NCBI GenBank assembly: GCA_045047085.1
Contig: JASFYT010000034.1
Location: 2,098 to 66,097, forward strand
Length of the DNA: 64,000 nt
Origin: Rhizobiaceae bacterium
GTDB lineage: Bacteria; Pseudomonadota; Alphaproteobacteria; Rhizobiales; Rhizobiaceae
Direction: 5' to 3'
This document shows, one piece after another, positions 2,644-20,077 of this stretch; the first letter of the stretch is position 1; every line of letters starts with the position of its first letter. The translations under genes and the position numbers were made by a program. The notes below the pieces were generated by a model. That model was given only the letters and a program-made list of their open reading frames with translations. It was not told where the DNA came from and did not search any database.

Positions 2644-2695
2644 CTATTTTTCAATCATTCTCACATAACCGCCACGCGGCCAGCACAACAGCGTT

Positions 2696-2986: not shown

Positions 2987-3009
2987 TTGTTTTCTCCTTT
3001 TCAAAAAAA

Positions 3010-3252
3010 TTAATTATCATCGTCGATCGATCCGATGATCAAGGCGTCAATCGGTGCCTTGACGTTATCAAAATAGGCCGCCGCTACAGACCCTTGCACA
3101 ACCAGCACATCTTCTCCCTCACCGCAGCCAAGCGGATCGAGGGCGATAATTTCTGTGCCGTTTTCCAGCTCCACATTCAGCAATGCCCCTTGTGGCAGAG
3201 TCTCTATACGCTTTGTTGACCAAAGCCTGCCGGTAACACGTCCTCTCACCAT
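3010..3252 (-). CDS. BMC vertex protein (BMC-P, EutN/CcmL family)
   Basis: 80 aa, [29 protein letters not shown]...LVVQGSVAA...[11 protein letters not shown], the typical EutN/CcmL pattern. Confidence 0.85.
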
Positions 3253-3707: not shown

Positions 3708-3710
3708 GGC

Positions 3711-5927: not shown

Positions 5928-7201
5928 CGTACCTTCTTCCGGTTGGAACCCATAATTTCCTCGGACGCCAGACCGATTGCAATTTCCACACGGGTCAGCA
6001 AATCTTCACACAGGCTTTGTGTCATCAATATACCCGGTTTGAATTGCAAAACACTTGGATCAAGGGTTGAAAATATCGCCCATACACCATGCTCGTAAAG
6101 GTGCCTCATTACCGGCTTCGCGCCCTCAGGGTCATTGAATTCCAGCCCTAAAATAACACCATTTTGCCGAATGCCCGTGAAGAAATCCGGGTAGAGCGCC
6201 TGAATATCGTCGAGCCCCGCACGGATAAAGTCAGAAACATAACGCACCATCGTGGCAACTTCCGGCCTCTGAGTTATTTCAAGCACTTTCAGCGCGACAA
6301 TGCAGCCAAGTTCTGCTCCCCCTGTGGTGGACATGTGAGCAAAGCCATCCTGCTTCAACCACTGCCCTGCCCGCTCGTTAACAACACAACACGAAATTGG
6401 ATACATGCCGCCGGTAATGCCCTTACCGATCACCATGATATCTGGTGTAACGCCGTATTTGGTAATGCCCCAAAGTTCGCCTGTACGCATTAATCCGGTC
6501 TGCACTTCATCAGCTATATAGAGCGCATCAAACCGCTCGCACAGGCTTTTTACGGCAGGCAGATAGCCCTCATTTGGCATTGGAAAACCATAGGTGGCCG
6601 GGATCGTTTCCATGATGACAGCGGCAACATCCCTTCCTCTCAACGCATCTTCCATTGCATCAAGATCATTGAATGGCACTTGAATAAATTCCCCAAGCGT
6701 ATCTTCTGACAAAAACATTTCGGAAAATCGCTCATCGCCTGTTTTAACAGCCAGACCGGAGTGTCCGTGATAAGCTTTGATAATCGAAACAATTTTGCGT
6801 TTTTGGGTTGCGTGCCGCGCAGATTTTATTGCCAGCTCCACGGCCTCAGCACCACCTGCCCCATAAATGGTATATTGCAGACCATCGGGTGTGCAGTCAG
6901 CCAAGGCCTCAGCCAAGGCCGTTCGGGCCAAAGCTGGAAAATGATGATTGCCCATATCAAAACGTTTTGCACCGGCATTCAATACTTCGATCAGTTCTGC
7001 ATTGCGATGGCCCAGATTATAGGTGCCGCCGTTGAGATGCACATCAATCAGGCGCTTGCCATCTAAATCATAGAGGCAATATCCTTCACGGCGATCAATC
7101 ACCAGATCGACGCCAACATCCTGCCAGAACTGGGTTTTATCCGGGTTCCAGAAAGCTTTCGACTGCTCCAGGAATTCCAGTTTTTCTGCACTCACAAGCA
7201 A
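5924..7201 (-). CDS. class-III aminotransferase-fold PLP enzyme; probable amino-alcohol-phosphate phospho-lyase
   Basis: 425 aa with DEVQTGLMRTGELWG and DIMVIGKGITGG (PLP-Lys) blocks. A 4-nt ATGA overlap links it to the AldDH gene. Pairing with an APH-type kinase is the known kinase/phospho-lyase arrangement. The lyase assignment, as opposed to a transaminase, is inference. Confidence 0.75.
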   Translation of the reverse strand: MLVSAEKLEFLEQSKAFWNPDKTQFWQDVGVDLVIDRREGYCLYDLDGKRLIDVHLNGGTYNLGHRNAELIEVLNAGAKRFDMGNHHFPALARTALAEALADCTPDGLQYTIYGAGGAEAVELAIKSARHATQKRKIVSIIKAYHGHSGLAVKTGDERFSEMFLSEDTLGEFIQVPFNDLDAMEDALRGRDVAAVIMETIPATYGFPMPNEGYLPAVKSLCERFDALYIADEVQTGLMRTGELWGITKYGVTPDIMVIGKGITGGMYPISCCVVNERAGQWLKQDGFAHMSTTGGAELGCIVALKVLEITQRPEVATMVRYVSDFIRAGLDDIQALYPDFFTGIRQNGVILGLEFNDPEGAKPVMRHLYEHGVWAIFSTLDPSVLQFKPGILMTQSLCEDLLTRVEIAIGLASEEIMGSNRKKVR

Positions 7202-7395: not shown

Positions 7396-8409
7396 ATGTC
7401 AGAATTTGATGATTTGTCCCATGAGGAGCAATTAATTTGCTTGAAGCATCTCGCGGATGCGGCCCTTGCCCATTTTCACCTGCCCATGGGCGTCACTTCT
7501 TATCTAATCAACCTATCAGAAAATGCCACCTACAAGGTTGAAGATCCTCGCACCTCCAAGTGCTGGGCCATGCGAGTCCATCGGGAAGGCTATCACACAA
7601 AAGACGTGATCTACTCCGAGTTGGCTTGGGCAAAGGCCCTGCGAGAAAGTGGTGCAGCGATTACACCAATCGCGCTGCCGGGCCTCGATGGAGATATCAT
7701 TCAGACAGTATCTCATGAAAGCCTGCCGAATTCGCGGCATGTGGTACTTTTTGAATGGGAAACTGGCGTTGAACCTTCTGAGGAAGACGATGACCTGCGG
7801 GCACCTTTCGAGGTACTTGGTGAAACCACAGCACACATGCATAAACACGTAAAATCGTGGAAATTACCAGAAAATTTTAGACGTCCAGTCTGGGATTTTG
7901 AAACTTCACTGGGATCGACCCCTCTTTGGGGGCGATGGCGCGATGGCATGGGCCTCGATAAAAATCGCATGCAGCTGTTCCATGAAACGGTGAACTTGAT
8001 AGAGCAACGGCTCGAAAAATTCGGAAAAGCACAAGAACGGTTCGGCTTGATTCATTGTGATATGCGTCTAGCCAATCTGCTGATTGACGGTGATGTAACC
8101 AAAGTAATTGATTTCGATGATTGTGGCTTTAGCTGGCTGATGTACGATTGTGCTACCACAGTATCCTTTTTCGAGAACAAACCTGAAGTCCCGGACTTAC
8201 TAAAATCATGGGTGAAAGGTTACCGCAAAGTCATCGACCTTCCAATGGAGGATGAAGCGGAAATTCCCACTTTTGTCATGCTGCGCAGATTGTTGCTTGT
8301 GGCCTGGATCGGCTCCCATTCAGAGACAGATCTTGCCCAGTCGATGGGGGTGACCTACAGCAAGGAAACAGATGCCCTTTGTCGCAATTATATTGCTGAT
8401 TTTAGTTGA
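7396..8409 (+). CDS. aminoglycoside-phosphotransferase-fold kinase (probable amino-alcohol kinase)
   Basis: 337 aa with the Brenner motif HCDMRLANLL and the metal-binding IDFDDCG. It is divergently transcribed from the BMC operon. Confidence 0.8.
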   Translation: MSEFDDLSHEEQLICLKHLADAALAHFHLPMGVTSYLINLSENATYKVEDPRTSKCWAMRVHREGYHTKDVIYSELAWAKALRESGAAITPIALPGLDGDIIQTVSHESLPNSRHVVLFEWETGVEPSEEDDDLRAPFEVLGETTAHMHKHVKSWKLPENFRRPVWDFETSLGSTPLWGRWRDGMGLDKNRMQLFHETVNLIEQRLEKFGKAQERFGLIHCDMRLANLLIDGDVTKVIDFDDCGFSWLMYDCATTVSFFENKPEVPDLLKSWVKGYRKVIDLPMEDEAEIPTFVMLRRLLLVAWIGSHSETDLAQSMGVTYSKETDALCRNYIADFS

Positions 8410-8557: not shown

Positions 8558-9628
8558 ATGAATATTGCCACCCACAGTCTTGAACGTCCAACTGGCAGCG
8601 ATAACGCGACCAGTGCTAATCCTGCAGTGCTTGCTGCTGCGGCCACTGGTATGGTCGAGTTCATTGAGAAAATGGGGGGTGATGTTGATCGCATATTTGG
8701 TCATGCAGGCATCTCGCCGGATATGGCTGGGGAACCCACTTTAAAGTTGAGCCTTTCTTCGTTTTGCCTGTTATTTGAAGAGGCTTCACGCCTGTCACAA
8801 CATGATAATTTCGGCCTATGGTTTGGTAATCAGTTTTCTCCTCAAAAACTTGGATTGTGGGGATATGCAACAATTTCTTCGTCGACCGTCGGGATGGCAT
8901 TGGAAAATTTGGTTGGCCTGTTTCGCTATCAACAGGAATCGTCGGTGATGAGCCTTTCCGAAGACAAGAATGGATTAATGCGGCTGGAATACCAAATTCA
9001 AGCTGTCGATATTGTCGAGCGCCGACAGGATGCCGAGCTCTCTCTTGGCATGTTTTTCAATGTCATTCGTGAGGGATGCGGCGCGAGCTGGGTGCCTGAA
9101 GAAGTACATTTTGAGCATGCAAAACCGGAAAACTGGAAAGATCACGAAACAGCGTTTTCGGCGCCGGTGTATTTTTCACAGCCGAAAAATGCTCTGTTGT
9201 TCAAGCCGGATATCATGAAACTCACCATGCCCGGGCGCGATCTTTCGCTCATGACAATTATGCAAACCTGCCTTAAAACTGTTGGCGATGAAAATGCTCA
9301 ACCAGTGTCGCTGATTGGTAGAATCCAAAATACCATTCGCACACAATTGCCGGATGGATACCCCTCTTTGGAGCAGGTTGCGCTAACCCTGAAGCTATCG
9401 CCCTCTGTCATCCAGCGCGAATTAGCTTTTGAAGGGCTGACCTATAAGGGACTGATCGAGACCACGCGGAATGCTCTGGCACTGATGTATATCCGGCAGC
9501 GTCATTTGCCTTTTTCCGAGATCGCATTTCTTCTGGGCTATTCAGAACTCAGCGCCTTCTCAAGGGCAGTGCGTCGCTGGACCGGATTTTCGCCACGAAA
9601 ATACCGGGCGCAATTGGCCAATTCCTAG
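8558..9628 (+). CDS. AraC-family transcriptional regulator
   Basis: 356 aa with the C-terminal double HTH ...FSEIAFLLGYSELSAFSRAVRRWTGFSPRKYR and a long N-terminal ligand-domain-like region. Confidence 0.85.
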   Translation: MNIATHSLERPTGSDNATSANPAVLAAAATGMVEFIEKMGGDVDRIFGHAGISPDMAGEPTLKLSLSSFCLLFEEASRLSQHDNFGLWFGNQFSPQKLGLWGYATISSSTVGMALENLVGLFRYQQESSVMSLSEDKNGLMRLEYQIQAVDIVERRQDAELSLGMFFNVIREGCGASWVPEEVHFEHAKPENWKDHETAFSAPVYFSQPKNALLFKPDIMKLTMPGRDLSLMTIMQTCLKTVGDENAQPVSLIGRIQNTIRTQLPDGYPSLEQVALTLKLSPSVIQRELAFEGLTYKGLIETTRNALALMYIRQRHLPFSEIAFLLGYSELSAFSRAVRRWTGFSPRKYRAQLANS

Positions 9629-9810: not shown

Positions 9811-10575
9811 CTACGCCAACGCTTCCAGAGACTCGGGCAAAATCTGTCCGCCATCAACTATGATTGTCTGACCGGTGATATAGTTGGCTTCCTTGGATGC
9901 GAGAAACAAGGCGGCGTTGCCGATATCTTCAACTGAACCAATTTTTTTCAACGGTATGGATGCAGCCATCGTTGCAATGTAATCATCCCCCAACCCCTCA
10001 AGGCCTTCGGTGAAAATATTGCCCGGCAAAACGGCATTCATTGTAATCGCGTCCTTGGCCAATTCAATACAGGCGGTACGCATAAATCCGAGTTGGCCTG
10101 ATTTGCTCGCCCCATAATGGGACCAACCGGGAAAGCCCGTTTCAGGTCCGGTAATGGAAGAAGTCAGAATCACCCGTCCCTGATCAGAATTCTTTAAATG
10201 AGGAAGGCAGGCTTTAACCGATAAAAATGTGCCTTTCAAATTAGTACTCATCACAAGATCCCATTCGTCCGGATCCATGTCCTCGATATTGGTTTGCGGG
10301 TAAATGCCAGCATTGGCACACAAAATATCAAGCCCGCCATTGCGATCAACAGCCGCCTGAGCCATGGCCTGTGATTGCTCCCAATTAGAAATATCTGCCG
10401 AAAACCCCGAGGCGCCATTACCAATTTCCTTAGCACAGGCCTCTGCTTCTGAAAGGGTTCGCGATACCACCAGAATTTTTGCGCCTTGTGCAGCAAATAC
10501 TTTTGCTATCCCTTTGCCTATGCCTTTGCTCGCGCCGGTAACAATAACCGATCGGCCTGCAATTGATGTCAACAT
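9811..10575 (-). CDS. SDR-family oxidoreductase (FabG-like)
   Basis: 254 aa with VTGASKGIGKG (TGxxxGxG) and YGASKSG (YxxxK). Confidence 0.85.
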   Translation of the reverse strand: MLTSIAGRSVIVTGASKGIGKGIAKVFAAQGAKILVVSRTLSEAEACAKEIGNGASGFSADISNWEQSQAMAQAAVDRNGGLDILCANAGIYPQTNIEDMDPDEWDLVMSTNLKGTFLSVKACLPHLKNSDQGRVILTSSITGPETGFPGWSHYGASKSGQLGFMRTACIELAKDAITMNAVLPGNIFTEGLEGLGDDYIATMAASIPLKKIGSVEDIGNAALFLASKEANYITGQTIIVDGGQILPESLEALA

Positions 10576-10609: not shown

Positions 10610-11434
10610 TTATAGCCGCTCCATCCGTCGCCTCCGGGCACCAATAACCAACCAAACAAGATAGGCAATCAACAGGAATATCGCAGCACTAAATAAAGTA
10701 AGCGCACCCAGGGTCGGCACCATTGGCGTGTAGCCTGACACCATTTTTGCATAGAGCCATTCAGGGATGGTTGAATCTGCACCGGTGGTGAACAGTGACA
10801 AGGGAAAATTCCCCCAAGACAACAGAAACGCGAAAATTGCCCCGGAAATAATTCCGGGCGATAAAATTGGCAAGGTCACTTCTGTAAGAACCTGCCACCT
10901 GGTTGCACCCAGATCGAACGCCGCTTCTTCAAGTGCCGGATCAAAACTATAAACCTGTATCGACATGATCAATATGACAATGGGGGTAATCCAGACCAGA
11001 TGAGCAAAGACGGCAGTGTGCCAACTTGTTGTAATGCCAAGAGCGGAAAACCACAGCAGCATCGCCAGTCCGAGAACCGCTTGAGGGAAGAATATCGGTA
11101 ATAAAATCAGCTTTTGATAAAGCTTGCGGCCCTTCCAGTCATAGCGCGCAAACGCCAATGCTCCCATAAACGCCAGTACGACGGAAATGACCGTTACCAG
11201 TGCCGCAACGGATAATGAGGTCCACAATAATTCCCGCACCGACAATGAGGAAAAGGCTTTTTGGTACCATTTATCAGTCCAACTCTGAATCGGGAATTTA
11301 AAATATCGTTGTTTGGAGAACGATGCCAGCAGCACCGCAACCATTGGCACATATAAGAAGAAGATAACGATCGATGTCCAAAGGATAATTGCCCGGCGCG
11401 TCATTTTTTGAGAAGTCGAACGCATATCTATCAT
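10610..11434 (-). CDS. ABC transporter permease (PotC-like)
   Basis: Multi-pass membrane protein with the EAA loop EEAAFDLGATRWQVLTEVTLP. The ATG at 11434 overlaps the upstream stop (ATGA). The longer track ORF is an upstream read-through. Confidence 0.8.
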   Translation of the reverse strand: MIDMRSTSQKMTRRAIILWTSIVIFFLYVPMVAVLLASFSKQRYFKFPIQSWTDKWYQKAFSSLSVRELLWTSLSVAALVTVISVVLAFMGALAFARYDWKGRKLYQKLILLPIFFPQAVLGLAMLLWFSALGITTSWHTAVFAHLVWITPIVILIMSIQVYSFDPALEEAAFDLGATRWQVLTEVTLPILSPGIISGAIFAFLLSWGNFPLSLFTTGADSTIPEWLYAKMVSGYTPMVPTLGALTLFSAAIFLLIAYLVWLVIGARRRRMERL

Positions 11435-12306
11435 CGCCTCCCGATAACCTTGTCGAGATCGACACGCCTGAACAGAATGAAAACAATGACGCCCGAAAGA
11501 GCTATCAGCAACACTGACAACGCCGAACCCTTGGGCCAATTCTGGGCAAAGGTGAAAGCTGACTCAATATCATCTGCAATCATCACAATGGCTTGCCCGC
11601 CAAGGATTTTCGCCTCAGCCAAAGACCCCAGAACAAGTACAAATGTTAAAATGCCACCGATCATAAACCCTGGCATAGACAAGGGTAACTCAATCTCACG
11701 AAATATCTGCCAACGCGTGGCACCCAAATCGGAGGCTGCTTCCTTCAACGTGTCCGGAACCATTGATATTCCGATGACCAATGGGAACAACGTAAAAGGC
11801 AGATAGACATATACCAGCCCCAACACAATGGCTGGCACAGTGAAGAGCAAACCTGAGGCTGTTGTGCCAAAAAGGGTTTGCAGCGAACCATCCAGAATTC
11901 CGTTTTTTAACAATATGAGAACCCAGCCAAACAGACGGATATTTTCAGAAATGAGTATAGGCACCGCAATGAGCGCGGTTACCAGATTGGCCCATTTGTT
12001 AAACAATTTGGCCATGCCATAAGCGATTGGGTAGCAAATGATAAACAATAATATTACGGTCGAGAGCGCGAGCACAAGTGACCAGAAAAACGAAATGTAA
12101 TAGCTGCTGGTGACAATCGAAACATAATTTTCAACCGTGGGCGTTTGCATCAATGAAAACGATTTCGACGGCATGAAGCTGTAGCCGACCACCATGAGAA
12201 GCGGACCGGCAAAGCCAATTAGCAAAAACAGCGACGCTGGCAAAGCGGTAAGAACGCCTGCCTGCCTGAACCATTTCGATTTACTACCTTGTGAACTGTC
12301 CGCCAT
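11431..12306 (-). CDS. ABC transporter permease (PotB-like)
   Basis: 291 aa, hydrophobic, with the EAA loop KEAASDLGATRWQIFREIELP. Confidence 0.85.
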   Translation of the reverse strand: MADSSQGSKSKWFRQAGVLTALPASLFLLIGFAGPLLMVVGYSFMPSKSFSLMQTPTVENYVSIVTSSYYISFFWSLVLALSTVILLFIICYPIAYGMAKLFNKWANLVTALIAVPILISENIRLFGWVLILLKNGILDGSLQTLFGTTASGLLFTVPAIVLGLVYVYLPFTLFPLVIGISMVPDTLKEAASDLGATRWQIFREIELPLSMPGFMIGGILTFVLVLGSLAEAKILGGQAIVMIADDIESAFTFAQNWPKGSALSVLLIALSGVIVFILFRRVDLDKVIGRR

Positions 12307-12310
12307 TATT

Positions 12311-13387
12311 TTACTCGCTCACCAAAATACAATCTTCCGGTTGCCAACCGATTTCAACCGTATCACCAACCTGTCCCTCATAAGGTTCGTCCTGAAGGCG
12401 CTCCACCAGCCAATGCTCTTCAAATTGTTCAATTCTAATTTGGTATTGCACCCGCGACCCCAATGCGTATTCGTTAAAGGCCACACCTTTGATTATGTTA
12501 TCCAGCCTCGCTGCAGATTTTCCGATTTTCATCATTTCCGGACGTATTATCAAAAACCCGTCGTTGAAATCTGAAAGATCGTCCACAACTTTGAATACAT
12601 CGCCAGAACCAATAACCCGGACCTGGTCTTTTCCAGCTTTTTCAACCTGGAGCGTATTCACCTCCCCCATAAACTGGGCAACGAATTTATTTTTCGGATG
12701 GTTGTATATTTCAAAAGGCGTTCCGACCTGAACAATGCCGCCATCACGCATAATGGCAATACGGTCAGACATCACCATCGCCTCTTCCAAAGAATGGGTG
12801 ATGTAGACGAACGTCTTGCCGGTCTCGCGATGAATATCTTTGAGTTCCTTTTCCAGCACCTTGCGCAGCCTGAAATCCAATGCCGACAAAGGTTCGTCAA
12901 AGAACAGGATTTCCGGATCAAAAGCCAGTGCCCGTGCAAGCGCGATGCGTTGACGTTCACCGCCCGAACACTGGGTAACACTGCGGTCATAATAGTCTAG
13001 CGGGAGGCGCAATTGCTCCATTAATTGACGGACCCGCGCTCGCCTGCTGGTTTTGTCCTGGCCGGCAATTTTCATTGAAAATTCAATATTCTCGCCAACG
13101 GATTTATGTGGAAATAACGCTAGGGATTGAAAAACCATGCAAGTCGGGCGCTTATTGGCTGGCAGGCCATTCATCACCTTGCTTTTCAGCCGCATCTCGC
13201 CCTCGGAAGGCTGATCCATGCCGACCAACATGCGTATCATTGTCGTTTTACCGGACCCAGAAGGGCCTACGAGCGTAAAGAATTCGCCTTCTAAAATCTT
13301 TAAATTAACATCATCAACTGCTACAAAATCACCAAAGCGCTTGGTGATCCCGCTGAGCTCGAGAAACGGCTCGCTTACTTCATTCAT
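12311..13387 (-). CDS. ABC transporter ATP-binding protein (PotA-like)
   Basis: Walker A GPSGSGKTT, signature CSGGERQR, Walker B ILFFDEP. The ATG at 13387 is preceded by GGAGG. Confidence 0.9.
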   Translation of the reverse strand: MNEVSEPFLELSGITKRFGDFVAVDDVNLKILEGEFFTLVGPSGSGKTTMIRMLVGMDQPSEGEMRLKSKVMNGLPANKRPTCMVFQSLALFPHKSVGENIEFSMKIAGQDKTSRRARVRQLMEQLRLPLDYYDRSVTQCSGGERQRIALARALAFDPEILFFDEPLSALDFRLRKVLEKELKDIHRETGKTFVYITHSLEEAMVMSDRIAIMRDGGIVQVGTPFEIYNHPKNKFVAQFMGEVNTLQVEKAGKDQVRVIGSGDVFKVVDDLSDFNDGFLIIRPEMMKIGKSAARLDNIIKGVAFNEYALGSRVQYQIRIEQFEEHWLVERLQDEPYEGQVGDTVEIGWQPEDCILVSE

Positions 13388-13530
13388 GAGGCCTCCGCGC
13401 CCGTCATACTTAGAGCACAATCTGAAAAGTGATAACCGGGTTTCAGATTGCGCTTTAAAATAAAATGCCCTAGGTCAGGAACTCTAATGAGCCCTGACCC
13501 AAGTAAACTTAAAATTGAAATCCAAAAAAC

Positions 13531-14688
13531 TTAGGTTTTTCGCTCACGTTTTGCGGCAGAATACAAATCGTACATTTCCGCGTAATCTGGGTTGATATCG
13601 TAATCAACAGAATTGCCCATTTCCTGCTCAATGGAATCCCATTGCACCGCATCCAATTCTTCTTTCGAGAAGGTGCTCAAAACATCCTGAGAACCCATTT
13701 GAGTTACAGGATTGTATGTTCCTTCGGCAAATGCAACTTTCTTGGAAACGTTAGGGCGCTGAACATACTCAAGAAAATCCTCAGCCAGACCAGATGGGTC
13801 AGGGTTGTTAACGACAGACGTCAACTCAATCCACACGATGCCGCCCTTGCCATCCATTGGGCCAGAATTTGGCGTAATGCCACGAATGTTTTTTGCACCA
13901 TCAAGACGTGCTGGCGATGCCGTATAGGTGCCACCAGTGAAATACGCATCGATTTCGCCATTGATCAAGGCAAGGTTCATTGCAACAAGATCGTCGGTCA
14001 AATTTTTTGCACCATTGAAAATTTGTTTGGCAACTTCACCAAATTTGGTGATTTCCGCTTTGGTATGTTTTTTGAACGGATGAATGTCGGCCGCGATGCA
14101 CATATGATAAATATTCCAGTTATCATACGTCAAAATGCCGTAACGCCCCTTCATTGCAGGATCAAGGAATAACTTGAAGCCCTGATCTTCCGCCAATTTT
14201 CTACTAATTTTATCCGTATTGACCACAAAAGAAAATGGGCCGAAACGCTGTGTCATGCCCAGCAAATCTTTACCGGAAGCATCCATCGCCCATTTATAGG
14301 GTGGCTTAAATGCTGGCATCATCTTGTCGTAATATGGCTCAAAACGTTCACGGGAAATAGGCTTGATCAAACCTTCGGGGAACATCTGCTCGCGTGCCCA
14401 TGGATTGTTTAGATTGATGATATCCCAAACCTTGGTTTCACCAGCGCGCAATCTGTTCACCGCATCCGGATCAGAGGTCAGCCCCTCTGCGCGAACCTTG
14501 GCTCCGAACTCTTTGCGGAACGGGTCAAGCACTTCATCGGAATTATACCCTTCCCAGCAATAAATGTTTAATTCCTTGTCACGCGCAGCATTAGCGATGT
14601 TCGGAAATGCACCGATTGACGCGGCAGCAGCGGCATATACGCCTGTCTGCTGCAAAAAATTACGTCGTGAAAGTGGGTATTTCAGCAT
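13531..14688 (-). CDS. periplasmic solute-binding protein (PotD/PotF-like) with a twin-arginine signal
   Basis: MLKYPLSRRNFLQQTGVYAAAAASIGAFPNIANA signal, followed by a polyamine-binding-like fold (LNIYCWEGY...). The ATG at 14688 has an RBS. Confidence 0.8.
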   Translation of the reverse strand: MLKYPLSRRNFLQQTGVYAAAAASIGAFPNIANAARDKELNIYCWEGYNSDEVLDPFRKEFGAKVRAEGLTSDPDAVNRLRAGETKVWDIINLNNPWAREQMFPEGLIKPISRERFEPYYDKMMPAFKPPYKWAMDASGKDLLGMTQRFGPFSFVVNTDKISRKLAEDQGFKLFLDPAMKGRYGILTYDNWNIYHMCIAADIHPFKKHTKAEITKFGEVAKQIFNGAKNLTDDLVAMNLALINGEIDAYFTGGTYTASPARLDGAKNIRGITPNSGPMDGKGGIVWIELTSVVNNPDPSGLAEDFLEYVQRPNVSKKVAFAEGTYNPVTQMGSQDVLSTFSKEELDAVQWDSIEQEMGNSVDYDINPDYAEMYDLYSAAKRERKT

Positions 14689-14940
14689 TATCTCTCTCCC
14701 TGTGGGCAAATCATCCCTGGAGGTGATTTCAAACAATCAACACTCCATTTGGCTTGCTATCCTGATTCAATTTGTATTTTACATCCGTGCCAACAAAAAA
14801 ATAAAGTATCAGCAAGACGCAATATCAATCTCCATCCAAGATAAGATTAATATATTCACCGCCGTTTCGTCTTGACATCAGACGCACTGGATTTGACACT
14901 TCCATACCGCTTCGGGCCAATTGGATATTCAAATAAATAT

Positions 14941-15636
14941 TTAGTGCAAATCCATCATTTCTTTTAACTCGCCGCTGCTGACCACATGACAGTAAATCAT
15001 ATTCATAATCTCCAGTTCCCTTTCATGCAGCTCATCGCTTCCGGCGGCACAACAATCTTCAACCACCACCACGTTAAAACTCTCATCAGCCAAACTTCTC
15101 ACCGTTGATGAGATGCATTGGTCTGTGAAAATTCCGCAACATATGACGTTTTTGATACCCAAATTGTGCAGGATCAATCTTAGATTGGTTCCTGTCAGCG
15201 CAGAATCTGTTGTTTTGGTTACGATAATTTCATCCCCCACCGGAGAAAGATCAGGCACCAATTGCGATGGTTTCAGGTTTTTCGGCAACAACAAATTATT
15301 CCATCCGGGCATTTTCTGACTGAGCGAACGGTCTCGCCCATCATCTGTGTGGCATGCAATGCGGGCAAATATGCATTCAACTCTGGCGTCGCGAAACAGC
15401 TTCAACAGCTCGGCAGTCCTGGGGATCACCTGCCTGTTCATACGATCATGAAATGGCGTCCATGCATCATATTCCACACGCGCATCATTTGACAGACCGC
15501 TTGTATCCGGACGCTCCAGATAGGTGTTTTGCACGTCAATGACCAAGAGTGCGGTTTCCGCAGGCTTGAGATCAAGATCATCTGGCTCGGGCGCATTTCG
15601 ATAGTAAATCGAGCGATAGGCTGTTTTCCAATTCAT
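14941..15636 (-). CDS. isochorismatase-family (cysteine) hydrolase
   Basis: 231 aa with LLVIDVQNTY and CGIFTDQCISSTVRS (catalytic Cys context). It lies 18 nt downstream of the dehydratase small subunit. Confidence 0.75.
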   Translation of the reverse strand: MNWKTAYRSIYYRNAPEPDDLDLKPAETALLVIDVQNTYLERPDTSGLSNDARVEYDAWTPFHDRMNRQVIPRTAELLKLFRDARVECIFARIACHTDDGRDRSLSQKMPGWNNLLLPKNLKPSQLVPDLSPVGDEIIVTKTTDSALTGTNLRLILHNLGIKNVICCGIFTDQCISSTVRSLADESFNVVVVEDCCAAGSDELHERELEIMNMIYCHVVSSGELKEMMDLH

Positions 15637-15654
15637 CAGGAGATTCCGTTTCGG

Positions 15655-16083
15655 TTAGTATCTGGTGGTGAACAAACCGCGTTGTTCATAAACCTCGGCG
15701 GCCTCTTCAATGAACTCAGCCATCCGTTCTGCCTGATAGGTAGTCCTTAATTTCTCAGATATCTCCAACAATACAGATTTGTCTTTTGCCCGGCCGGGTC
15801 TCAAAAACTCATAAATTTCCATCAAATAATCTTGCGGAATATTCGTAAGCTCAGAGGCACGATTAAAATTATCTCCAAGTTTTGGTCGATTGCAATCACG
15901 TGCTATATCCGCCTGCATCTCCAAAGCTTGACTGGTGATCCGGAAATCATCCATGACTACATCCCCACGCTCAACAGCGGCAAGATCAAGTTCACCGAGC
16001 TGTTTTCCTCGCTGGCCCAGAACAAGATCGGGGCGATTTTCCGCCAATGGGTAATCCTTGGCACCAAGCCTATTATTGTCCAA
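15655..16083 (-). CDS. pduE: B12-dependent diol/glycerol dehydratase small (gamma) subunit
   Basis: 142 aa. DYPLAENRPDLV...DDFRITSQALEMQADIA...LGDNFNRASELTNIPQDYLMEIYEFLRPGR matches the PduE/DhaB3 pattern. Confidence 0.85.
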   Translation of the reverse strand: MDNNRLGAKDYPLAENRPDLVLGQRGKQLGELDLAAVERGDVVMDDFRITSQALEMQADIARDCNRPKLGDNFNRASELTNIPQDYLMEIYEFLRPGRAKDKSVLLEISEKLRTTYQAERMAEFIEEAAEVYEQRGLFTTRY

Positions 16084-18379
16084 TATTGTTCTCCAAAAAT
16101 TTAATTTCGATTTCTTCGGGTGTGCGATCTTCCCCCGTCAAAGAGGTTTCAATTGCATAAATCAAGGCAACACGGGCGTGAAACCTTGCGCCCAGCGCTT
16201 CCCCGCGCGTTGGAACGACAACAGGTTCCGGCAAGGTGTCGTTGGCGTAATCACCTGCATTTTCTCCAAGTTTTCGATAATGTTCCAACCGGGTAATTGG
16301 AGCGTTAGAGAACAGCTCCAGATTATTGTGCGGCAAACGATCAATGTGATGGATCACAGCGGTTCCTTTTGCCTGAATGCCAATTCCGATCCCCGATCCT
16401 GCCATGCTTGCGGCACTCAGCCCCAAAAACGAAGTATCCGCGGTATGGTGAAAACGAACGATTCGGGCATGGCATCCCTTGGCCTCAATTCCGCTAATCA
16501 ATTCGCGCAAAACCTGTGCAAGGGAATGATCCGCAAGCGTACGAAAAAGTTTCAAACCAAAGGCCGGGCTAATGCCGATGACAATTTCATCGCTCTGACT
16601 GCCGCGTTCTGCCTGACCAATTTTTTTATAAGCAATTTGAGTGGATTCTTTTGGTTCGAAAGATTGCTCCACATGGAGAACAGCATCACGATTGAGTTGA
16701 TCGCGTATATTGATGATTTCGTTGCGGCGTTGTTCTGACAACTGATAGCCTGTGCCGGGGCCGCTGTAATTATTGGGATCATTGATGGCAGAAATTACCT
16801 GACCATTTCGGATGATTGCGGATGTTTGCAGGTAATCGCCCGATACCCGGAGCTTCACCAAAGACAACAAATGTTCAGCCTCCTTTGTAAACCCGCGTGC
16901 GGCCAGTGCTTTGATTACATCAACAACATTTATGCCACGATCCTTGATCTTGTCGCTGATGATTGCGACCTCTCGGGGCATGTAACTATCAGTCTCGTCC
17001 GACCCGGAAGCGGCCACCACGCTGCTTTTCATCGCGGCAGTTGGCGATCCCAAATCCAGTTCCTCAAATACCGCAGACAAAACATCAATGGCGCGACTGC
17101 GCAGATCAAGAATTTCAGTCTCGCCAATGGGGGTGAGACCACCATCAGCTTCAAAGTCACGTTGGAGAACCAGAAAATCTTCCATCTCTTCCCCGTTGAA
17201 GAGCGAAGCATTGAAAGAATTATCATATTTCAATATTGTGCCAAATCCTGAGCAAATGAAATCTGACCCTGCCATCAGGTAGGGAAGAATTTTGGCTCCT
17301 ATGCGAATTTCAGATTCGGAACTTCTTGCGTCATTACCGGAAGCACACTCTAAATCCAGCCAGACAGCGATGAGGTTTTCCGCTAGCAATTCACGCACCC
17401 CGCCAGCAATACTGGCTGCAAGCGGAGCGCCATCAATTCCGCCATTTTGAGTGCCCTGCGCACCCATGGCGCGCTGCATGCACAAACAACGCGCCTCAAG
17501 ATAAAGCAGAGATTTGGATTCATGAAACCCCATCAACAGTTCAGACCCTGCACCTGACGTGCAGCGCATTTTGATCCCGCGCGAAGCGTAAGCCGTTGTT
17601 AAAAATGCTTTGGACCACGGCGTATCATCCCCATCGATAAAAGCTTTCTCGGTGCCATACACGGAAACAGTTTCTGCGTATGAGGTAAATCCCGCCATGC
17701 CAATTTGAAGCTCTTCAGCTTCTTCACTAGAACATTGAAACAAGGTTCCCCAGCGACCAACCGCAGCCCCCACACAGCAGGCCAATGCATTCGACCATGC
17801 ATTACGCGACACACGCATGGTGGTCTCAATTTCATCAAATCCAAATGCAACCGCCGTAGCCGCATCAGCTACCAACTGCAGCGGATCATCCTTGGCGTTT
17901 GTGACATGTCCCTGATTTCCAGGCGTCTTGCGAGCACGCATTTTTGAATAGGCAAAGGTCAACTCCATGGCGGTTAAGTGGGCAACCACTTCTGTCAATT
18001 TTGCTGGTGTCATCCCATGCGCAAGCTTAACCAGATCAGCGCGCGGTACATGCATATCAACAAGCATACGGGCAACTTCCTGCGAAGGCATTGCCATCAT
18101 TGCAACGGTTGTTTCAGCATCGAGATGATGCCGGGCAATGAACAAATCGATCATATCGAAGTCTGCCTCCGCCACCCCGTCCATCGATACAACTCGACCG
18201 TCGTGAACCACGACACCCGGACTAGGGTCACGGGCCCCGTTCATTGCCGAAAACCCGTTTTCGGGATCATCAACGGCAAAATTATCGAGCCGCAAAGGTC
18301 GGTCGTCCCATTGAGAAAACCGTCTCCACCTATTGGGTTTTTGTGACATTGACTGGTCCATTCTACGCCCTCTCGACAT
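16073..18379 (-). CDS. B12-dependent diol/glycerol dehydratase, fused large (alpha) and medium (beta) subunits
   Basis: 768 aa. Residues up to about 555 follow PduC (GNQGHVTNAKDDPLQL, SYAETVSVYGTE, DDTPWSKAFL, ASGND, LQRDFEADGGL, GDYLQTSAI, GPGTGY). The C-terminal ~200 aa follow PduD (IVIGISPAFG...GSGIGIGIQAKGTAVIH...NLELF). Confidence 0.85.
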   Translation of the reverse strand: MSRGRRMDQSMSQKPNRWRRFSQWDDRPLRLDNFAVDDPENGFSAMNGARDPSPGVVVHDGRVVSMDGVAEADFDMIDLFIARHHLDAETTVAMMAMPSQEVARMLVDMHVPRADLVKLAHGMTPAKLTEVVAHLTAMELTFAYSKMRARKTPGNQGHVTNAKDDPLQLVADAATAVAFGFDEIETTMRVSRNAWSNALACCVGAAVGRWGTLFQCSSEEAEELQIGMAGFTSYAETVSVYGTEKAFIDGDDTPWSKAFLTTAYASRGIKMRCTSGAGSELLMGFHESKSLLYLEARCLCMQRAMGAQGTQNGGIDGAPLAASIAGGVRELLAENLIAVWLDLECASGNDARSSESEIRIGAKILPYLMAGSDFICSGFGTILKYDNSFNASLFNGEEMEDFLVLQRDFEADGGLTPIGETEILDLRSRAIDVLSAVFEELDLGSPTAAMKSSVVAASGSDETDSYMPREVAIISDKIKDRGINVVDVIKALAARGFTKEAEHLLSLVKLRVSGDYLQTSAIIRNGQVISAINDPNNYSGPGTGYQLSEQRRNEIINIRDQLNRDAVLHVEQSFEPKESTQIAYKKIGQAERGSQSDEIVIGISPAFGLKLFRTLADHSLAQVLRELISGIEAKGCHARIVRFHHTADTSFLGLSAASMAGSGIGIGIQAKGTAVIHHIDRLPHNNLELFSNAPITRLEHYRKLGENAGDYANDTLPEPVVVPTRGEALGARFHARVALIYAIETSLTGEDRTPEEIEIKFLENNIGQ

Positions 18380-18601
18380 CCAAATTTTATCGCCAGAATG
18401 TCGTCAACATTTTATAATCGTCAAGGAATTTTTTATTTCGAGCCATTCTCGATGATCTTTTGGCCACAAAACAAATGCTTGATTTTTCGGTAAATACACT
18501 TGTAAAAGCGGAGATATAACGCGTTTGTAATTTTTCCTGTGCAAAAAATATCCTCAAAATATTAGGCAGAAATACCTCAAAAAAATAAATGGAAACCAAC
18601 T

Positions 18602-20077
18602 ATGAAATCTGAATTATTCATCAATGGATCATGGGTCGCGGCGCATTCGGGCAAAAAATTCGAAGTGGTCGACCCGGCAACAGAACAAGTGTTCCATCAT
18701 GTTTCTTCGGCAGGAAAAAAAGATATCGACGACGCGGTTTTGGCCGCGCGTCGGGCATTTGATACGGGGCCATGGCCAAAAATGAATGGCACAGAACGGG
18801 CAGTGATTCTTCGAAAAATGGCTGACGAAATTGAAGCCCGAACTTTAGAGCTGGCGCAACTGGAAGTTCGAAACAATGGCAAGCCACTGGCGGAAGCAAT
18901 TTGGGATATTGAAGATACAGTCGGTTGTTTTGCATTTTATGCAAATTTGGCGGAAGAGCATCACAGTATTCAAGATGAAAAAATCAAACTAGACGATGAC
19001 CGATTCACTAGCATTGTTGTGAAAGAACCCGTCGGTGTTGTCGGGGCAATTATTCCGTGGAATTTTCCAATGTTGATGGCTGCCTGGAAGATCGCGCCTG
19101 CTCTTGCTGCTGGCTGCACAATTATTCTCAAGCCCTCTGAAGTGACGCCATTAACTGCCCTTGAATTGGGCGAAATTGCCCAAAAATCGGGCCTGCCCGA
19201 CGGCGTACTGAACATTGTTACAGGCTTTGGTCCCACCGCGGGGCAGCCTCTTTGCGAACACCCCGGCGTCGATAAACTTGCGTTCACCGGCTCTGTTTTA
19301 ACCGGTTCACGCATCATGCAAACGGCGGCAAAAGACATCAAAAACCTGTCGTTGGAACTTGGTGGAAAATCGCCTTTTGTTATTTTTGGTGACGCTAATA
19401 TCGACGACGCAGTCGAGTGGATAATGTTCGGAATTTTCTGGAATCAGGGGGAAGTATGCTCCGCCACATCGCGCGTTCTGGTGGAACAATCAATCTACGA
19501 ACCACTGCTTGAACGTCTGAGCGAAGAGGCAAAAAAAATTACCATCGGCAATGGTGCAGATGAGGGAATTTTACTCGGTCCAATTGTCAATAAAGCCCAG
19601 TTTGAAAAGGTCCTCACACACATAGAAAATGGCAAGAATTCGGGCGCGCGATTGGTCACTGGCGGCGGTCGGGTTGCCGCGATGAACAAGGGCTATTTTA
19701 TCGAACCGACAATCTTTGCAGACGTCGAGGAAACTGCTGATATTTGGCGGGAAGAAATTTTCGGGCCGGTGGTCTGTGTCAAATCTTTTGTTACAGAAGA
19801 AGAGGCGATCCGATTGGCCAATGACAGTGACTACGGTCTTGCAGCGGCAGTCATGTCAAAAGATGACGAGCGTTGCGAGCGGGTCGCCCGTGCTTTCCGC
19901 GCTGGCATCGTTTGGATAAATTGCTCACAACCTACCTTTGTCGAGGCCCCTTGGGGAGGTTACAAAAAATCAGGAATCGGTCGCGAATTGGGTCGATGGG
20001 GATTTGAAAACTATCTGCAAGAAAAGCAAATTACCCGATTTGCCAGCACCAAACCTTGGGGTTGGTATCTCAAATAG
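18602..20077 (+). CDS. NAD(P)-dependent aldehyde dehydrogenase (BetB/aminoaldehyde-DH-like, non-acylating)
   Basis: 491 aa with ELGGKSP, EEIFGPV, and the catalytic GEVCSATSR. Confidence 0.9.
   Translation: MKSELFINGSWVAAHSGKKFEVVDPATEQVFHHVSSAGKKDIDDAVLAARRAFDTGPWPKMNGTERAVILRKMADEIEARTLELAQLEVRNNGKPLAEAIWDIEDTVGCFAFYANLAEEHHSIQDEKIKLDDDRFTSIVVKEPVGVVGAIIPWNFPMLMAAWKIAPALAAGCTIILKPSEVTPLTALELGEIAQKSGLPDGVLNIVTGFGPTAGQPLCEHPGVDKLAFTGSVLTGSRIMQTAAKDIKNLSLELGGKSPFVIFGDANIDDAVEWIMFGIFWNQGEVCSATSRVLVEQSIYEPLLERLSEEAKKITIGNGADEGILLGPIVNKAQFEKVLTHIENGKNSGARLVTGGGRVAAMNKGYFIEPTIFADVEETADIWREEIFGPVVCVKSFVTEEEAIRLANDSDYGLAAAVMSKDDERCERVARAFRAGIVWINCSQPTFVEAPWGGYKKSGIGRELGRWGFENYLQEKQITRFASTKPWGWYLK

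What the first reader, a model, noticed from the sequence alone, without database searches (positions are those of the whole stretch)
14941..20077. Alpha-beta-fused B12 diol dehydratase with no reactivase and no targeting peptide, co-transcribed with an isochorismatase-like hydrolase, next to a BMC
Seen in the sequence: a single 768-aa ORF joins PduC-like and PduD-like sequences, followed by a PduE-like gene (11-nt overlap) and an isochorismatase-family gene 18 nt further on. A non-acylating NAD-ALDH is transcribed divergently.

No PduGH/DdrAB-like reactivase, adenosyltransferase, or shell gene accompanies the dehydratase. I could not recognise a B12 riboswitch upstream.

Established knowledge: in Pdu microcompartments the N-termini of PduD and PduP carry the encapsulation peptides, and the dehydratase needs a reactivase. 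Here the fusion removes a free PduD N-terminus, and the small subunit has no N-terminal extension.

Inference: this is a second, probably non-encapsulated, propionaldehyde- or acetaldehyde-forming enzyme. It lies 8 kb from a BMC whose own signature enzyme also releases an aldehyde. Whether the two routes share the shell, and what the hydrolase does, is open.
Basis: partly seen in the sequence, partly recalled or inferred. Interest (0 to 1): 0.6.

Follow-up and report, generated by a model that had tools for sequence, protein, structure and literature searches.

The report
Reactivase-less fused B12 dehydratase, amino-alcohol locus
A vitamin-B12 diol dehydratase with two subunits fused into one protein is a conserved add-on to a known amino-alcohol-degrading gene cluster, works without the usual repair enzyme, and has an acidic residue in its substrate pocket that suggests an amino-substituted diol as substrate.

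Summary
A 768-aa ORF (16073-18379, minus strand) joins the large and medium dehydratase subunits. It is followed by a small-subunit gene and an isochorismatase-family gene. No reactivase exists in this genome or in 48 other carrier genomes; a Klebsiella positive control scored E = 1e-162.

The fusion is real: more than 76 relatives carry it in one frame. It is not new. Natural fusions were noted in 2010, and microcompartment (BMC) loci of type "RMM2" were defined in 2014 by carrying diol-dehydratase genes.

The dehydratase always travels with the amino-alcohol module, with or without a shell:
- The SDR is present in 48 of 49 full-flank loci and the kinase in 39 of 49.
- All 4 dehydratase carriers in a 401-genome sample have the kinase.

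New here:
- The clade is monophyletic. It keeps every catalytic and Ca-binding residue but always has Asp at the Ser301 pocket position and a small residue at Gln336.
- Orthologues of the hydrolase occur only beside this dehydratase.

Best reading: a cytosolic, reactivase-independent feeder enzyme acting on an amino- or hydroxy-substituted vicinal diol, for example 3-amino-1,2-propanediol. The substrate is inferred, not shown.

The parts
16073..18379 (-). Fused large+medium (alpha-beta) subunit of an AdoCbl-type diol/glycerol dehydratase. The probable true start is Met11 at 18349. Pocket residues are Asp316 (= Ser301 in K. oxytoca numbering) and Ala351 (= Gln336).
   Evidence: Pfam and NCBIfam hits. 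Alignment to PDB glycerol and diol dehydratases. Residue conservation in 76 relatives. Clade tree.
15655..16083 (-). Small (gamma) dehydratase subunit, 142 aa, with no N-terminal extension. It overlaps the fused gene by 11 nt.
   Evidence: Pfam PF02287, E = 1.5e-43. Present in 49 of 49 full-flank loci.
14941..15636 (-). Isochorismatase-family cysteine amidohydrolase with an Asp34-Lys141-Cys174 triad. It is a dedicated partner of this dehydratase clade.
   Evidence: Pfam. Nearest solved relatives are amidases, cysteine hydrolases, biuret hydrolase and RutB. The triad is invariant in 47 orthologues. Orthologues occur only next to the dehydratase.
10610..14736 (-). ABC importer of the polyamine / 2-aminoethylphosphonate type. 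Binding protein 13531-14736, ATPase 12311-13420, permeases 11431-12306 and 10610-11539.
   Evidence: In other loci it is replaced by an APC permease or a CUT1 sugar-type ABC system.
9811..10575 (-). SDR, a close homologue of PDB entries 6CI8/6CI9. From memory these are the M. smegmatis (S)-1-amino-2-propanol dehydrogenase.
   Evidence: 287 bits, against 162 bits for the next group. Present in 48 of 49 full-flank loci.
8558..9628 (+). AraC-family regulator that scores above the cut-off of the QhpR model (an amine-responsive regulator).
   Evidence: 286 bits, cut-off 250.
7396..8409 (+). APH-fold amino-alcohol kinase, a homologue of PDB entry 6EF6. From memory this is the M. smegmatis (S)-1-amino-2-propanol kinase.
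   Evidence: E = 4.4e-80. Co-occurs with all 4 dehydratase carriers in the 401-genome sample.
5924..7201 (-). Class-III aminotransferase-fold PLP enzyme, the presumed O-phospho-amino-alcohol phospho-lyase and first gene of the BMC operon.
   Evidence: The lyase function is inferred from the RMM/AAUM model.
4335..5927 (-). Acylating (EutE-type) aldehyde dehydrogenase with a C-terminal encapsulation-peptide-like helix, IRRIIAEEL.
2020..4331 (-). BMC shell and accessory genes. Two ~206-aa tandem-BMC-like proteins (2020-2643 and 3711-4331), BMC-H (2696-3004), a putative vertex protein assigned by sequence resemblance only (3010-3252), and a 151-aa protein with an N-terminal IREILAEEL helix (3252-3707).
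18602..20077 (+). Soluble NAD(P)-ALDH of the betaine-/aminobutyraldehyde-dehydrogenase type, divergent from the dehydratase.
   Evidence: Orthologues of about 60 % identity sit in the same position in six Hyphomicrobium-type, BMC-less loci.

Best explanation
The fused alpha-beta protein plus the small subunit form a functional adenosylcobalamin-dependent vicinal-diol dehydratase. It belongs to a distinct, monophyletic alphaproteobacterial clade.

This clade is an optional upstream module of the amino-alcohol catabolic locus (RMM2/AAUM type: importer, SDR, amino-alcohol kinase, PLP phospho-lyase, aldehyde dehydrogenase, with or without a BMC shell).

Inferred steps:
1. The enzyme works in the cytosol, not in the shell.
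2. It does not use a DdrAB/PduGH-type reactivase. The covalent alpha-beta link is expected to hinder the beta-subunit swap that reactivases use. Engineered versions of both the fusion and the Gln336-to-small-residue change inactivate more slowly.
3. The invariant Asp at the position that faces C3 of the substrate (Ser301 in Klebsiella enzymes) points to a diol with a cationic or H-bond-donating C3 substituent. The best candidate is 3-amino-1,2-propanediol or a close amino-polyol.
4. Its amino-carbonyl product is reduced by the co-conserved SDR and then phosphorylated. The phospho-lyase cleaves it to an aldehyde, which the ALDH oxidises.
5. The co-transcribed cysteine amidohydrolase is a dedicated accessory enzyme. 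It probably frees the amine from, or removes, a carbamoyl or acyl group on the substrate or product.
For: Shown:
- Domain set and an intact Ca-binding and catalytic residue set.
- The fusion is conserved in one frame in 76 relatives.
- The clade is monophyletic with 100/100 support.
- Asp at Ser301 is invariant in 76 of 76 relatives, and also in the Shinella enzyme, G189, G434 and G057. Position 336 is Ala, Thr or Cys. Canonical enzymes have Ser and Gln.
- Glycerol's C3-OH points at Ser301. S301A and Q336A change Km and lower the glycerol inactivation rate. The reactivase works by a beta-subunit swap. An engineered alpha-beta fusion inactivates more slowly (PMC7674605).
- PF08841 is absent from the window's genome and from 48 other carrier genomes, with a positive control at E = 1e-162. 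EutA gives only marginal short hits.
- PduO-type and CobA-type adenosyltransferases are present elsewhere in the genome.
- Synteny in 49 loci with full downstream flanks: small subunit 49, SDR 48, isochorismatase 41, kinase 39.
- In a 401-genome sample, all 4 dehydratase carriers have the kinase 5-14 kb from the dehydratase. About 8 further genomes have the kinase without the dehydratase.
- Hydrolase orthologues occur only beside the dehydratase, and their triad is invariant.
- In Shinella and Agrobacterium plasmids the dehydratase sits inside one operon of transporter, SDR, kinase, PLP enzyme and GntR, with no BMC.
- In G057 everything from the dehydratase to the shell is co-directional and contiguous.
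- The SDR and kinase are close homologues of PDB 6CI8/6CI9 and 6EF6.
- The encapsulation motif is found only on the BMC ALDH and the 151-aa protein.
- The regulator matches the amine-responsive QhpR model, and the importer is amine-type.
Against: - No biochemical data exist for any member of this clade. The substrate is inferred from two pocket positions and gene context.
- With canonical regiochemistry, 3-amino-1,2-propanediol would give 3-aminopropanal. That does not obviously feed a 1-amino-2-ol kinase and lyase. Feeding the known aminoacetone-to-aminopropanol route would need ketone-forming regiochemistry, which is unproven.
- 3-amino-1,2-propanediol is not a recognised abundant natural metabolite.
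- An Asp could equally bind a hydroxyl group (glycerol or a polyol).
- The presumed phospho-lyase also lacks the simple encapsulation motif, so absence of the motif is weak evidence about localisation.
- The role of the hydrolase is unexplained, and it is missing from about one locus in six.
- Absence of a known reactivase does not exclude an unrecognised one.
- The assignment of the PDB entries to the M. smegmatis aminopropanol enzymes rests on my memory. The paper was not held.
Confidence: 0.5

Rival explanations
1. Ordinary propanediol/glycerol dehydratase running in parallel. It makes propionaldehyde (or 3-hydroxypropanal) from 1,2-propanediol or glycerol. That aldehyde is oxidised by the neighbouring soluble ALDH or shared with the BMC ALDH. 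This is the 'bifunctional RMM2' idea of Axen et al. and is.
For: - The full catalytic residue set is present.
- S301A and Q336A mutants of the Klebsiella enzyme stay active on both substrates.
- A soluble ALDH is divergently transcribed in the window and in six Hyphomicrobium-type loci.
- Both routes would converge on propionaldehyde.
- Axen et al. raised this alternative.
Against: - It does not explain the invariant Asp facing the C3 methyl.
- It does not explain why the dehydratase is never found without the kinase and SDR module.
- It does not explain why the gene sits inside amine- or polyol-transporter operons followed by SDR, kinase and lyase, with no ALDH in the operon itself.
- It does not explain the dedicated amidohydrolase.
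- A cytosolic propionaldehyde source next to a BMC that exists to confine that aldehyde is illogical.
Confidence: 0.27
2. Downstream role in one linear pathway. Kinase and lyase act first on a 2-amino-1,3-diol such as serinol and give hydroxyacetone. The SDR reduces that to 1,2-propanediol. The dehydratase converts it to propionaldehyde for the ALDH.
For: It uses every conserved enzyme once. It needs only canonical dehydratase chemistry. It fits the tight SDR-dehydratase linkage.
Against: - In BMC-bearing loci the lyase and the acylating ALDH are the enzymes encoded with the shell. This implies that the lyase product, not the dehydratase product, is the confined aldehyde.
- The SDR and kinase are close homologues of PDB entries that I recall as the aminoacetone/1-amino-2-propanol enzymes.
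- The Asp pocket remains unexplained.
Confidence: 0.1
3. The fusion is an artefact, or the genes are decaying relics with no function.
For: None found. An IS3 remnant lies 700 bp beyond the divergent ALDH.
Against: The reading frame is uninterrupted in 76 relatives from many families. All catalytic residues are invariant. The partner hydrolase has more than 120 invariant positions.
Confidence: 0.02

Closest known systems
Klebsiella oxytoca diol dehydratase PddABC and K. pneumoniae glycerol dehydratase DhaB123 (PDB 1DIO, 1IWP, 1MMF)
   Same: The large-subunit part is about 46-51 % identical, with the same three domains. All Ca/substrate-binding and catalytic residues are conserved: Gln141, His143, Glu170, Glu221, Gln296, Asp335, Ser362 and Phe374.
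   Different: - Alpha and beta are one polypeptide, joined by about 10 residues.
- There is no reactivase, adenosyltransferase or dha/pdu genes nearby.
- Pocket changes: Ser301 to Asp, Gln336 to Ala, Ser299 to Gly and Cys302 to Gly.
- The enzyme forms a separate clade on a long stem.
Natural alpha-beta fused dehydratases noted in Mesorhizobium loti and Mycobacterium smegmatis (Liu et al. 2010, cited in PMC7674605)
   Same: The same architecture: a large subunit carrying the beta-homologous sequence, plus a small subunit. A carrier from the window's own family (G434, 7 Mb, no BMC within 20 kb) has the same clade enzyme.
   Different: Those enzymes were only noted bioinformatically. The pocket signature, the genome-wide lack of a reactivase and the amino-alcohol linkage were, as far as I could find, not described. 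I could not fetch the Mycobacterium sequence to place it in either fused clade.
RMM2 (AAUM-type) bacterial microcompartment locus (Axen et al. 2014, PMC4207490; Sutter et al. 2021, PMC8217296)
   Same: Shell genes, acylating ALDH, class-III aminotransferase-fold enzyme, phosphotransferase, SDR, transporter, regulator and diol-dehydratase genes.
   Different: - Axen et al. argued that the Mycobacterium dehydratase genes, being on the opposite strand, are probably not used by the BMC.
- Here the dehydratase heads the transporter-SDR string. In G057 it is co-directional with the whole locus.
- The regulator is AraC/QhpR-type rather than GntR-type.
- An isochorismatase-like gene is added.
Actinobacterial fused dehydratase clade (Thermoleophilia, Gaiella; P0127, L091, L092)
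   Same: Alpha-beta fusion, Ala at position 336, and no reactivase gene within 10 kb.
   Different: - It keeps Ser301.
- The small-subunit gene comes first.
- The context is SDR, FAA-hydrolase, ALDH and epimerase, with no kinase, lyase or BMC.
- It groups with the canonical unfused enzymes in the tree, so the fusion is probably independent.
Engineered alpha-beta fused K. pneumoniae glycerol dehydratase (PDB 9VI2 and others; Wang 2009, Maddock 2017, Gibson 2013, as reviewed in PMC7674605)
   Same: Best PDB match over the whole length, residues 17-760. The engineered fusions are active, and one shows slower inactivation.
   Different: These are artificial constructs of a canonical enzyme with a canonical pocket. 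Their reactivase dependence was not resolved.

Membership tests
AdoCbl-dependent diol/glycerol dehydratase (PduCDE / PddABC / DhaB123) | Large, medium and small subunit domains all present | tested here: met
   PF02286, PF02288 and PF02287 are all far above their cut-offs. NCBIfam NF011979 scores 824 bits against a cut-off of 788.
AdoCbl-dependent diol/glycerol dehydratase (PduCDE / PddABC / DhaB123) | Ca-binding and catalytic residues Gln141, His143, Glu170, Glu221, Gln296, Asp335 and Ser362 | tested here: met
   All are present in the window protein and invariant in 76 relatives.
AdoCbl-dependent diol/glycerol dehydratase (PduCDE / PddABC / DhaB123) | Substrate-pocket residues Ser301 and Gln336, which contact C3 of the substrate | tested here: not met
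   Asp316 and Ala351 stand in their place, invariant across the clade.
AdoCbl-dependent diol/glycerol dehydratase (PduCDE / PddABC / DhaB123) | Separate alpha and beta polypeptides, and a cognate two-subunit reactivase (DdrAB / PduGH / GdrAB) | tested here: not met
   The ORF is fused. PF08841 is absent from the window's genome and 48 other carrier genomes, with a positive control at 1e-162. There is no extra PF02288 protein.
AdoCbl-dependent diol/glycerol dehydratase (PduCDE / PddABC / DhaB123) | Adenosylcobalamin-dependent dehydration of a vicinal diol to a carbonyl compound | not testable with these tools
   This needs an enzyme assay. Adenosyltransferases are present in the genome.
Pdu-type microcompartment cargo | N-terminal encapsulation peptide on PduD or PduP, and pduL/P/Q/S/O and shell genes in the same operon | tested here: not met
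   There is no free PduD N-terminus, no extension on any subunit, and no locus-type motif. No pdu accessory genes are present.
RMM2 / AAUM-type BMC locus | BMC-H, BMC-T and vertex shell genes, together with an acylating ALDH, a class-III aminotransferase-fold enzyme, an APH-type kinase and an SDR | tested here: met
   The vertex protein was assigned by sequence resemblance only, with no Pfam hit sought.
RMM2 / AAUM-type BMC locus | Diol-dehydratase genes within the locus (the feature that separates RMM2 from RMM1) | tested here: met
Isochorismatase-like cysteine hydrolases | Asp-Lys-Cys catalytic triad on the isochorismatase fold | tested here: met
   PF00857, E = 5e-33. Asp34, Lys141 and Cys174 are invariant in 47 orthologues. 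No curated equivalog cut-off is reached, so the substrate is unknown.

The most novel reading that the evidence does not exclude
The Asp-pocket clade is a new functional class of B12 dehydratase that is specific for amino-diols. It converts 3-amino-1,2-propanediol (or a related amino-polyol) into aminoacetone by ketone-forming regiochemistry. In this way it feeds the aminoacetone, 1-amino-2-propanol, phospho-ester, propionaldehyde route of the AAUM microcompartment. It has evolved to do without any reactivase, through the alpha-beta fusion and the loss of Gln336.
Probability: 0.2. Interest if true: 0.75.

Novelty: new variant of a known kind. Interest (0 to 1): 0.5.

Why it matters
- **An open question becomes testable.** The role of the diol dehydratase in RMM2-type microcompartment loci has been open since 2014. 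This analysis turns it into an experiment: a defined enzyme clade, a defined pocket residue (Asp316), a short list of candidate substrates, and culturable carriers (Dongia, Shinella, Agrobacterium cucumeris).
- **Biotechnology.** A naturally reactivase-independent B12 dehydratase would be of practical interest, because suicide inactivation and reactivase dependence limit glycerol and diol dehydratases in 3-hydroxypropionate and 1,3-propanediol production. Both engineered tricks that slow inactivation, the alpha-beta fusion and Gln336Ala, occur together in this clade and in the actinobacterial fused clade.
- **Ecology.** The clade is abundant in soil, freshwater and marine metagenomes, with thousands of 90 % identity clusters. 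Its substrate is therefore likely to be an environmentally relevant small nitrogen compound.

Tried and rejected
- **Assembly or frameshift artefact.** Rejected: the frame is conserved in 76 relatives.
- **Reactivase elsewhere in the genome.** PF08841 and a second PF02288 protein are absent. EutA (PF06277) gives only 45-68-residue marginal hits typical of generic actin-fold ATPases.
- **An unrecognised reactivase in the locus.** Unbiased clustering of all ORFs in 80 loci found no conserved ATPase or chaperone-like gene. It found only an APC permease and a class-I glutamine-amidotransferase-like hydrolase.
- **Cobalamin riboswitch.** No Rfam match at gathering threshold in the 64 kb window.
- **Encapsulation peptide.** The locus motif I-R-x-I-[IL]-A-E-E-L occurs only on the BMC ALDH and the 151-aa protein.
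- **A route via 3-aminopropanal, beta-alanine and transamination.** This was suggested by the ALDH and aminotransferase-fold pair upstream of the dehydratase in Hyphomicrobium-type loci. That aminotransferase-fold protein matches the C-terminal half of fused kinase-aminotransferase proteins (PRK06148/PRK06149), so it is more likely the phospho-lyase of that locus type. I dropped this as supporting evidence.
- **Amino-alcohol ammonia-lyase acting on 1-amino-2-propanol.** Judged unlikely. Both oxygen-binding and Ca ligands are conserved, and the new Asp lies at the C3 side, not at the O1 site.
- **Promoter and terminator scan.** Counts did not clearly exceed the shuffles, so it was uninformative for operon structure.
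- **Island borders (tRNA-Ser fragment).** ARAGORN finds no tRNA in the window. I did not pursue this.
- **Literature.** No paper was found on the biochemistry of this clade or on aminopropanediol catabolism. The Mallette & Kimber 2018 paper is not held.
- **Tools.** Structure prediction was not run, because model coordinates cannot be measured here.


Full report
**1. Observation**

- The 768-aa product of 16073-18379 (minus strand) carries Dehydratase_LU (residues 17-563, E = 3.7e-211) and Dehydratase_MU (residues 605-713) in one frame.
- NCBIfam places it over the cut-off of the propanediol/glycerol dehydratase large-subunit model and also matches the medium-subunit model.
- Against solved structures, the separate Klebsiella alpha chain aligns to residues 17-565 and the beta chain to residues 575-760. 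The two parts are therefore joined by only about ten residues.
- The database gene call for the same protein is 758 aa, so Met11 is the likely start.
- The small subunit (142 aa) overlaps by 11 nt and has no N-terminal extension.
- The isochorismatase-family gene follows after 18 nt.
- A betaine-/aminobutyraldehyde-dehydrogenase-like ALDH is divergent.

**2. The fusion is real, common and already noted**

A scan of one genome per species found 413 loci encoding a relative, and the best 80 were fetched. Of these, 76 give a full-length ORF with both parts in one frame. The protein collection holds thousands of 90 % clusters with both Pfam domains.

Natural alpha-beta fusions in Mesorhizobium loti and Mycobacterium smegmatis were reported by Liu et al. 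2010. Engineered fusions are active, and one inactivates more slowly (PMC7674605).

**3. No reactivase**

- PF08841 (the reactivase large subunit) is absent from the window's own 97.7 % complete genome.
- It is absent from 45 genomes that hold fetched loci and from three complete carrier genomes in the phylum sample.
- It is also absent from the Shinella plasmid, while a Klebsiella dha plasmid used as positive control scores E = 1e-162.
- No second Dehydratase_MU-like protein, which a small reactivase subunit would be, exists in the window's genome.
- EutA gives only short marginal hits.
- Clustering every ORF of the 80 loci revealed no conserved ATPase-like partner.
- PduO-type and CobA-type adenosyltransferases are encoded on other contigs.
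- No riboswitch or other Rfam family is detected in the window.

**4. The dehydratase is part of the amino-alcohol locus, not a neighbour of it**

The window encodes the following genes:
- On the minus strand, in order: dehydratase, small subunit, hydrolase, polyamine-type ABC importer, SDR.
- On the plus strand: an APH-type kinase and an AraC/QhpR-type regulator.
- On the minus strand again: a class-III aminotransferase-fold enzyme, an acylating ALDH and the shell genes.

Among 49 related loci with a full 10-kb downstream flank:

| Gene | Loci with it |
|---|---|
| Small subunit | 49 |
| SDR | 48 |
| Hydrolase | 41 |
| Kinase | 39 |

Only one locus with both flanks complete lacks all amino-alcohol genes.

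In an evenly drawn sample of 401 genomes of the phylum, four carry the dehydratase. All four have a kinase orthologue 5-14 kb away. About eight further genomes have the kinase without the dehydratase. The dehydratase is therefore an optional add-on that is never seen without the module. This is the RMM1 versus RMM2 distinction of Axen et al. 2014.

The shell is optional:
- Shinella and Agrobacterium plasmids carry the dehydratase inside one operon of CUT1-type ABC transporter, SDR, phosphotransferase, class-III PLP enzyme and GntR, with no BMC and no hydrolase.
- G434 and the Hyphomicrobium-type loci also show no shell genes in the sequence examined.
- In G057, a Dongia relative, everything from the dehydratase to the last shell gene is contiguous and co-directional, apart from two AraC genes.

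The transporter is swapped between three families: PotABCD-like, APC permease and CUT1. This fits a small polar amine or polyol substrate.

The SDR and kinase are close homologues of PDB 6CI8/6CI9 (287 bits, against 162 for the next group) and 6EF6 (E = 4e-80). From memory these entries are the M. smegmatis (S)-1-amino-2-propanol dehydrogenase and kinase of Mallette & Kimber 2018. That paper was not held.

**5. A clade-specific substrate pocket**

The window residue number equals the K. oxytoca number plus 15.
- Gln141, His143, Glu170, Glu221, Thr222, Gln296, Asp335, Ser362 and Phe374 are invariant in 76 of 76 relatives.
- Ser301 is always Asp, Gln336 always Ala, Ser299 always Gly and Cys302 always Gly.
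- More distant members (Shinella 62 %, G189 66 %) keep the Asp and have Thr or Cys at position 336.

Across representatives of the whole family there are three signatures:

| Group | Residues 299-302 | Residues 335-336 |
|---|---|---|
| Canonical unfused enzymes | (S/A)-(I/V)-S-C | D-Q |
| Actinobacterial fused clade | S-I-S-C | D-A |
| The window's clade | G-(I/V)-D-G | D-(A/T/C) |

A maximum-likelihood tree makes the Asp clade monophyletic (100/100) on a long stem. The actinobacterial fused clade groups with the canonical enzymes, so the fusion probably arose twice.

The actinobacterial clade has a different context: the small subunit comes first, beside SDR, FAA-hydrolase, ALDH and epimerase genes. 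It has no kinase, lyase, BMC or nearby reactivase.

The review PMC7674605 states that glycerol's C3-OH points at Ser301 in one binding mode. It also reports that S301A and Q336A raise the Km for propanediol and lower the glycerol inactivation rate from 1.15 to 0.22 and 0.081 per min.

**6. The hydrolase**

- It keeps the Asp-Lys-Cys triad in all 47 orthologues, and more than 120 of its 231 positions are nearly invariant.
- Its nearest solved relatives are amidases, cysteine hydrolases, biuret hydrolase and RutB, at low similarity. No curated equivalog threshold is met.
- In the 401-genome sample, orthologues (74 % identity) occur only in three of the four dehydratase carriers, always adjacent to the dehydratase. 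All other hits are at 38 % identity or less.

It is therefore dedicated to the dehydratase's pathway. Its reaction is unknown. In Dongia-type loci a class-I glutamine-amidotransferase/peptidase-C26-like gene is added next to it.

**7. Localisation**

The BMC ALDH ends in IRRIIAEEL and the 151-aa protein begins with IREILAEEL. No dehydratase subunit, nor the hydrolase, SDR, kinase or PLP enzyme, has this motif. Together with the BMC-less loci, this favours a cytosolic dehydratase. The evidence is weak, because the presumed lyase lacks the motif too.

**8. Mechanism proposed**

Shown: the points in sections 1-7.

Inferred:
- (a) The enzyme is an active AdoCbl dehydratase.
- (b) The covalent alpha-beta link is expected to hinder the beta-subunit-swap mechanism of reactivases. 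Together with the small residue at position 336, it parallels engineered inactivation-resistant variants, which would explain the absence of a reactivase.
- (c) The Asp facing C3 selects a diol with an ammonium or hydroxyl group at that position.
- (d) The enzyme acts upstream of the SDR, kinase and lyase. In BMC loci the lyase and ALDH are the enzymes encoded with the shell, so the confined aldehyde is the lyase product.

The most economical scheme has five steps:
1. 3-amino-1,2-propanediol is dehydrated to aminoacetone.
2. The SDR reduces aminoacetone to 1-amino-2-propanol.
3. The kinase forms the phospho-ester.
4. The lyase cleaves the phospho-ester to propionaldehyde.
5. The ALDH oxidises propionaldehyde.

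Step 1 needs ketone-forming regiochemistry, which is untested. Canonical chemistry would give 3-aminopropanal instead. Longer amino-polyols are alternatives. I put 0.5 on the general reading and 0.2 on the specific aminoacetone scheme.

**9. Rivals**

- A parallel, ordinary propanediol/glycerol dehydratase (0.27).
- A downstream role after a serinol-type lyase reaction (0.10).
- Artefact or relic (0.02).

Evidence for and against each is given in the structured fields.

**10. Comparison and novelty**

The fusion (2010) and the presence of dehydratase genes in RMM2 loci (2014, 2021) are known. An earlier follow-up in this scan had already filed the BMC as an RMM2/AAUM-type locus.

As far as my searches went, four points have not been described:
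- the systematic, control-backed absence of any reactivase;
- the clade-defining Asp and small-residue pocket;
- the strict dependence on the kinase and SDR module, irrespective of a shell;
- the dedicated amidohydrolase.

I rate it a new variant of a known kind, with interest 0.5. It is not a surprise in architecture, but it makes an open question about RMM2 loci directly testable.

**11. Limits**

- No enzyme assay and no measurable structure were available.
- The Mycobacterium RMM2 dehydratase could not be fetched.
- The reactivase census for the actinobacterial clade covers only 10 kb either side of two loci.

Noticed in passing
window 20776-21921: IS3-family transposase remnants: an HTH_Tnp_1 ORF, an HTH_21 ORF and a split rve ORF. 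They lie directly beyond the divergent ALDH, so the right edge of the locus has been disturbed.
   Followed up: no
window 22415-28807: A polyol or erythritol-like catabolic cluster on the minus strand: RpiB-like isomerase, TIM, a 143-aa ORF with no Pfam hit, a HAD hydrolase, an FGGY kinase, a class-II aldolase and a GlpD-like FAD oxidoreductase. The Shinella plasmid also has FGGY kinase, HAD and DeoR genes upstream of its dehydratase operon. This may be coincidence.
   Followed up: no
window 8558-9628: The AraC-family regulator scores above the curated cut-off of the QhpR model (286 against 250 bits). QhpR is the regulator of quinohemoprotein amine dehydrogenase operons. RMM1 loci and the Rhizobiaceae-plasmid versions use GntR-type regulators instead.
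   Followed up: partly
window 3252-3707 and 4335-5927: The 151-aa protein of unknown family starts with IREILAEEL, and the acylating ALDH ends with IRRIIAEEL. They share an amphipathic helix of the encapsulation-peptide kind.
   Followed up: partly
L009, L011, L014-L019, L025, L030, L040, L042, L071 (Dongia-type loci), about 3.4 kb downstream of the dehydratase start: A 250-aa class-I glutamine-amidotransferase / peptidase-C26-like gene lies between the isochorismatase-like gene and the binding-protein gene. It is a second amide hydrolase in the same operon and is absent from the window.
   Followed up: partly
L089 (Shinella plasmid NZ_CP132313) 10819-21871; L096 (Agrobacterium cucumeris plasmid pO132a) 8823-19843: On two Rhizobiaceae plasmids the fused dehydratase genes are embedded between the permease and ATPase genes of a CUT1 sugar-type ABC transporter. 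They are followed by an SDR, a phosphotransferase, a class-III PLP enzyme and GntR. The kinase and PLP enzyme match the two halves of the fused PRK06148/PRK06149 family.
   Followed up: partly
L091 9598-12250; L092 9595-12235 (Thermoleophilia-type Actinomycetota): A second, probably independent, alpha-beta fused dehydratase clade. The small-subunit gene comes first, Ser301 is kept and position 336 is Ala. It sits next to SDR, FAA-hydrolase, ALDH and epimerase genes, a context that resembles deoxy-sugar or sugar-acid catabolism.
   Followed up: partly
L054 18521-19960: Hyphomicrobium-type loci carry, beyond the kinase, a second ALDH that passes the aminobutyraldehyde-dehydrogenase model cut-off (794 against 615 bits). 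It lies next to polyamine-type permease genes.
   Followed up: no
window 1-2000: G+C is 0.405 in the first 2 kb, against 0.45-0.52 elsewhere. A 287-aa ORF with no Pfam hit lies at 171-1034.
   Followed up: no
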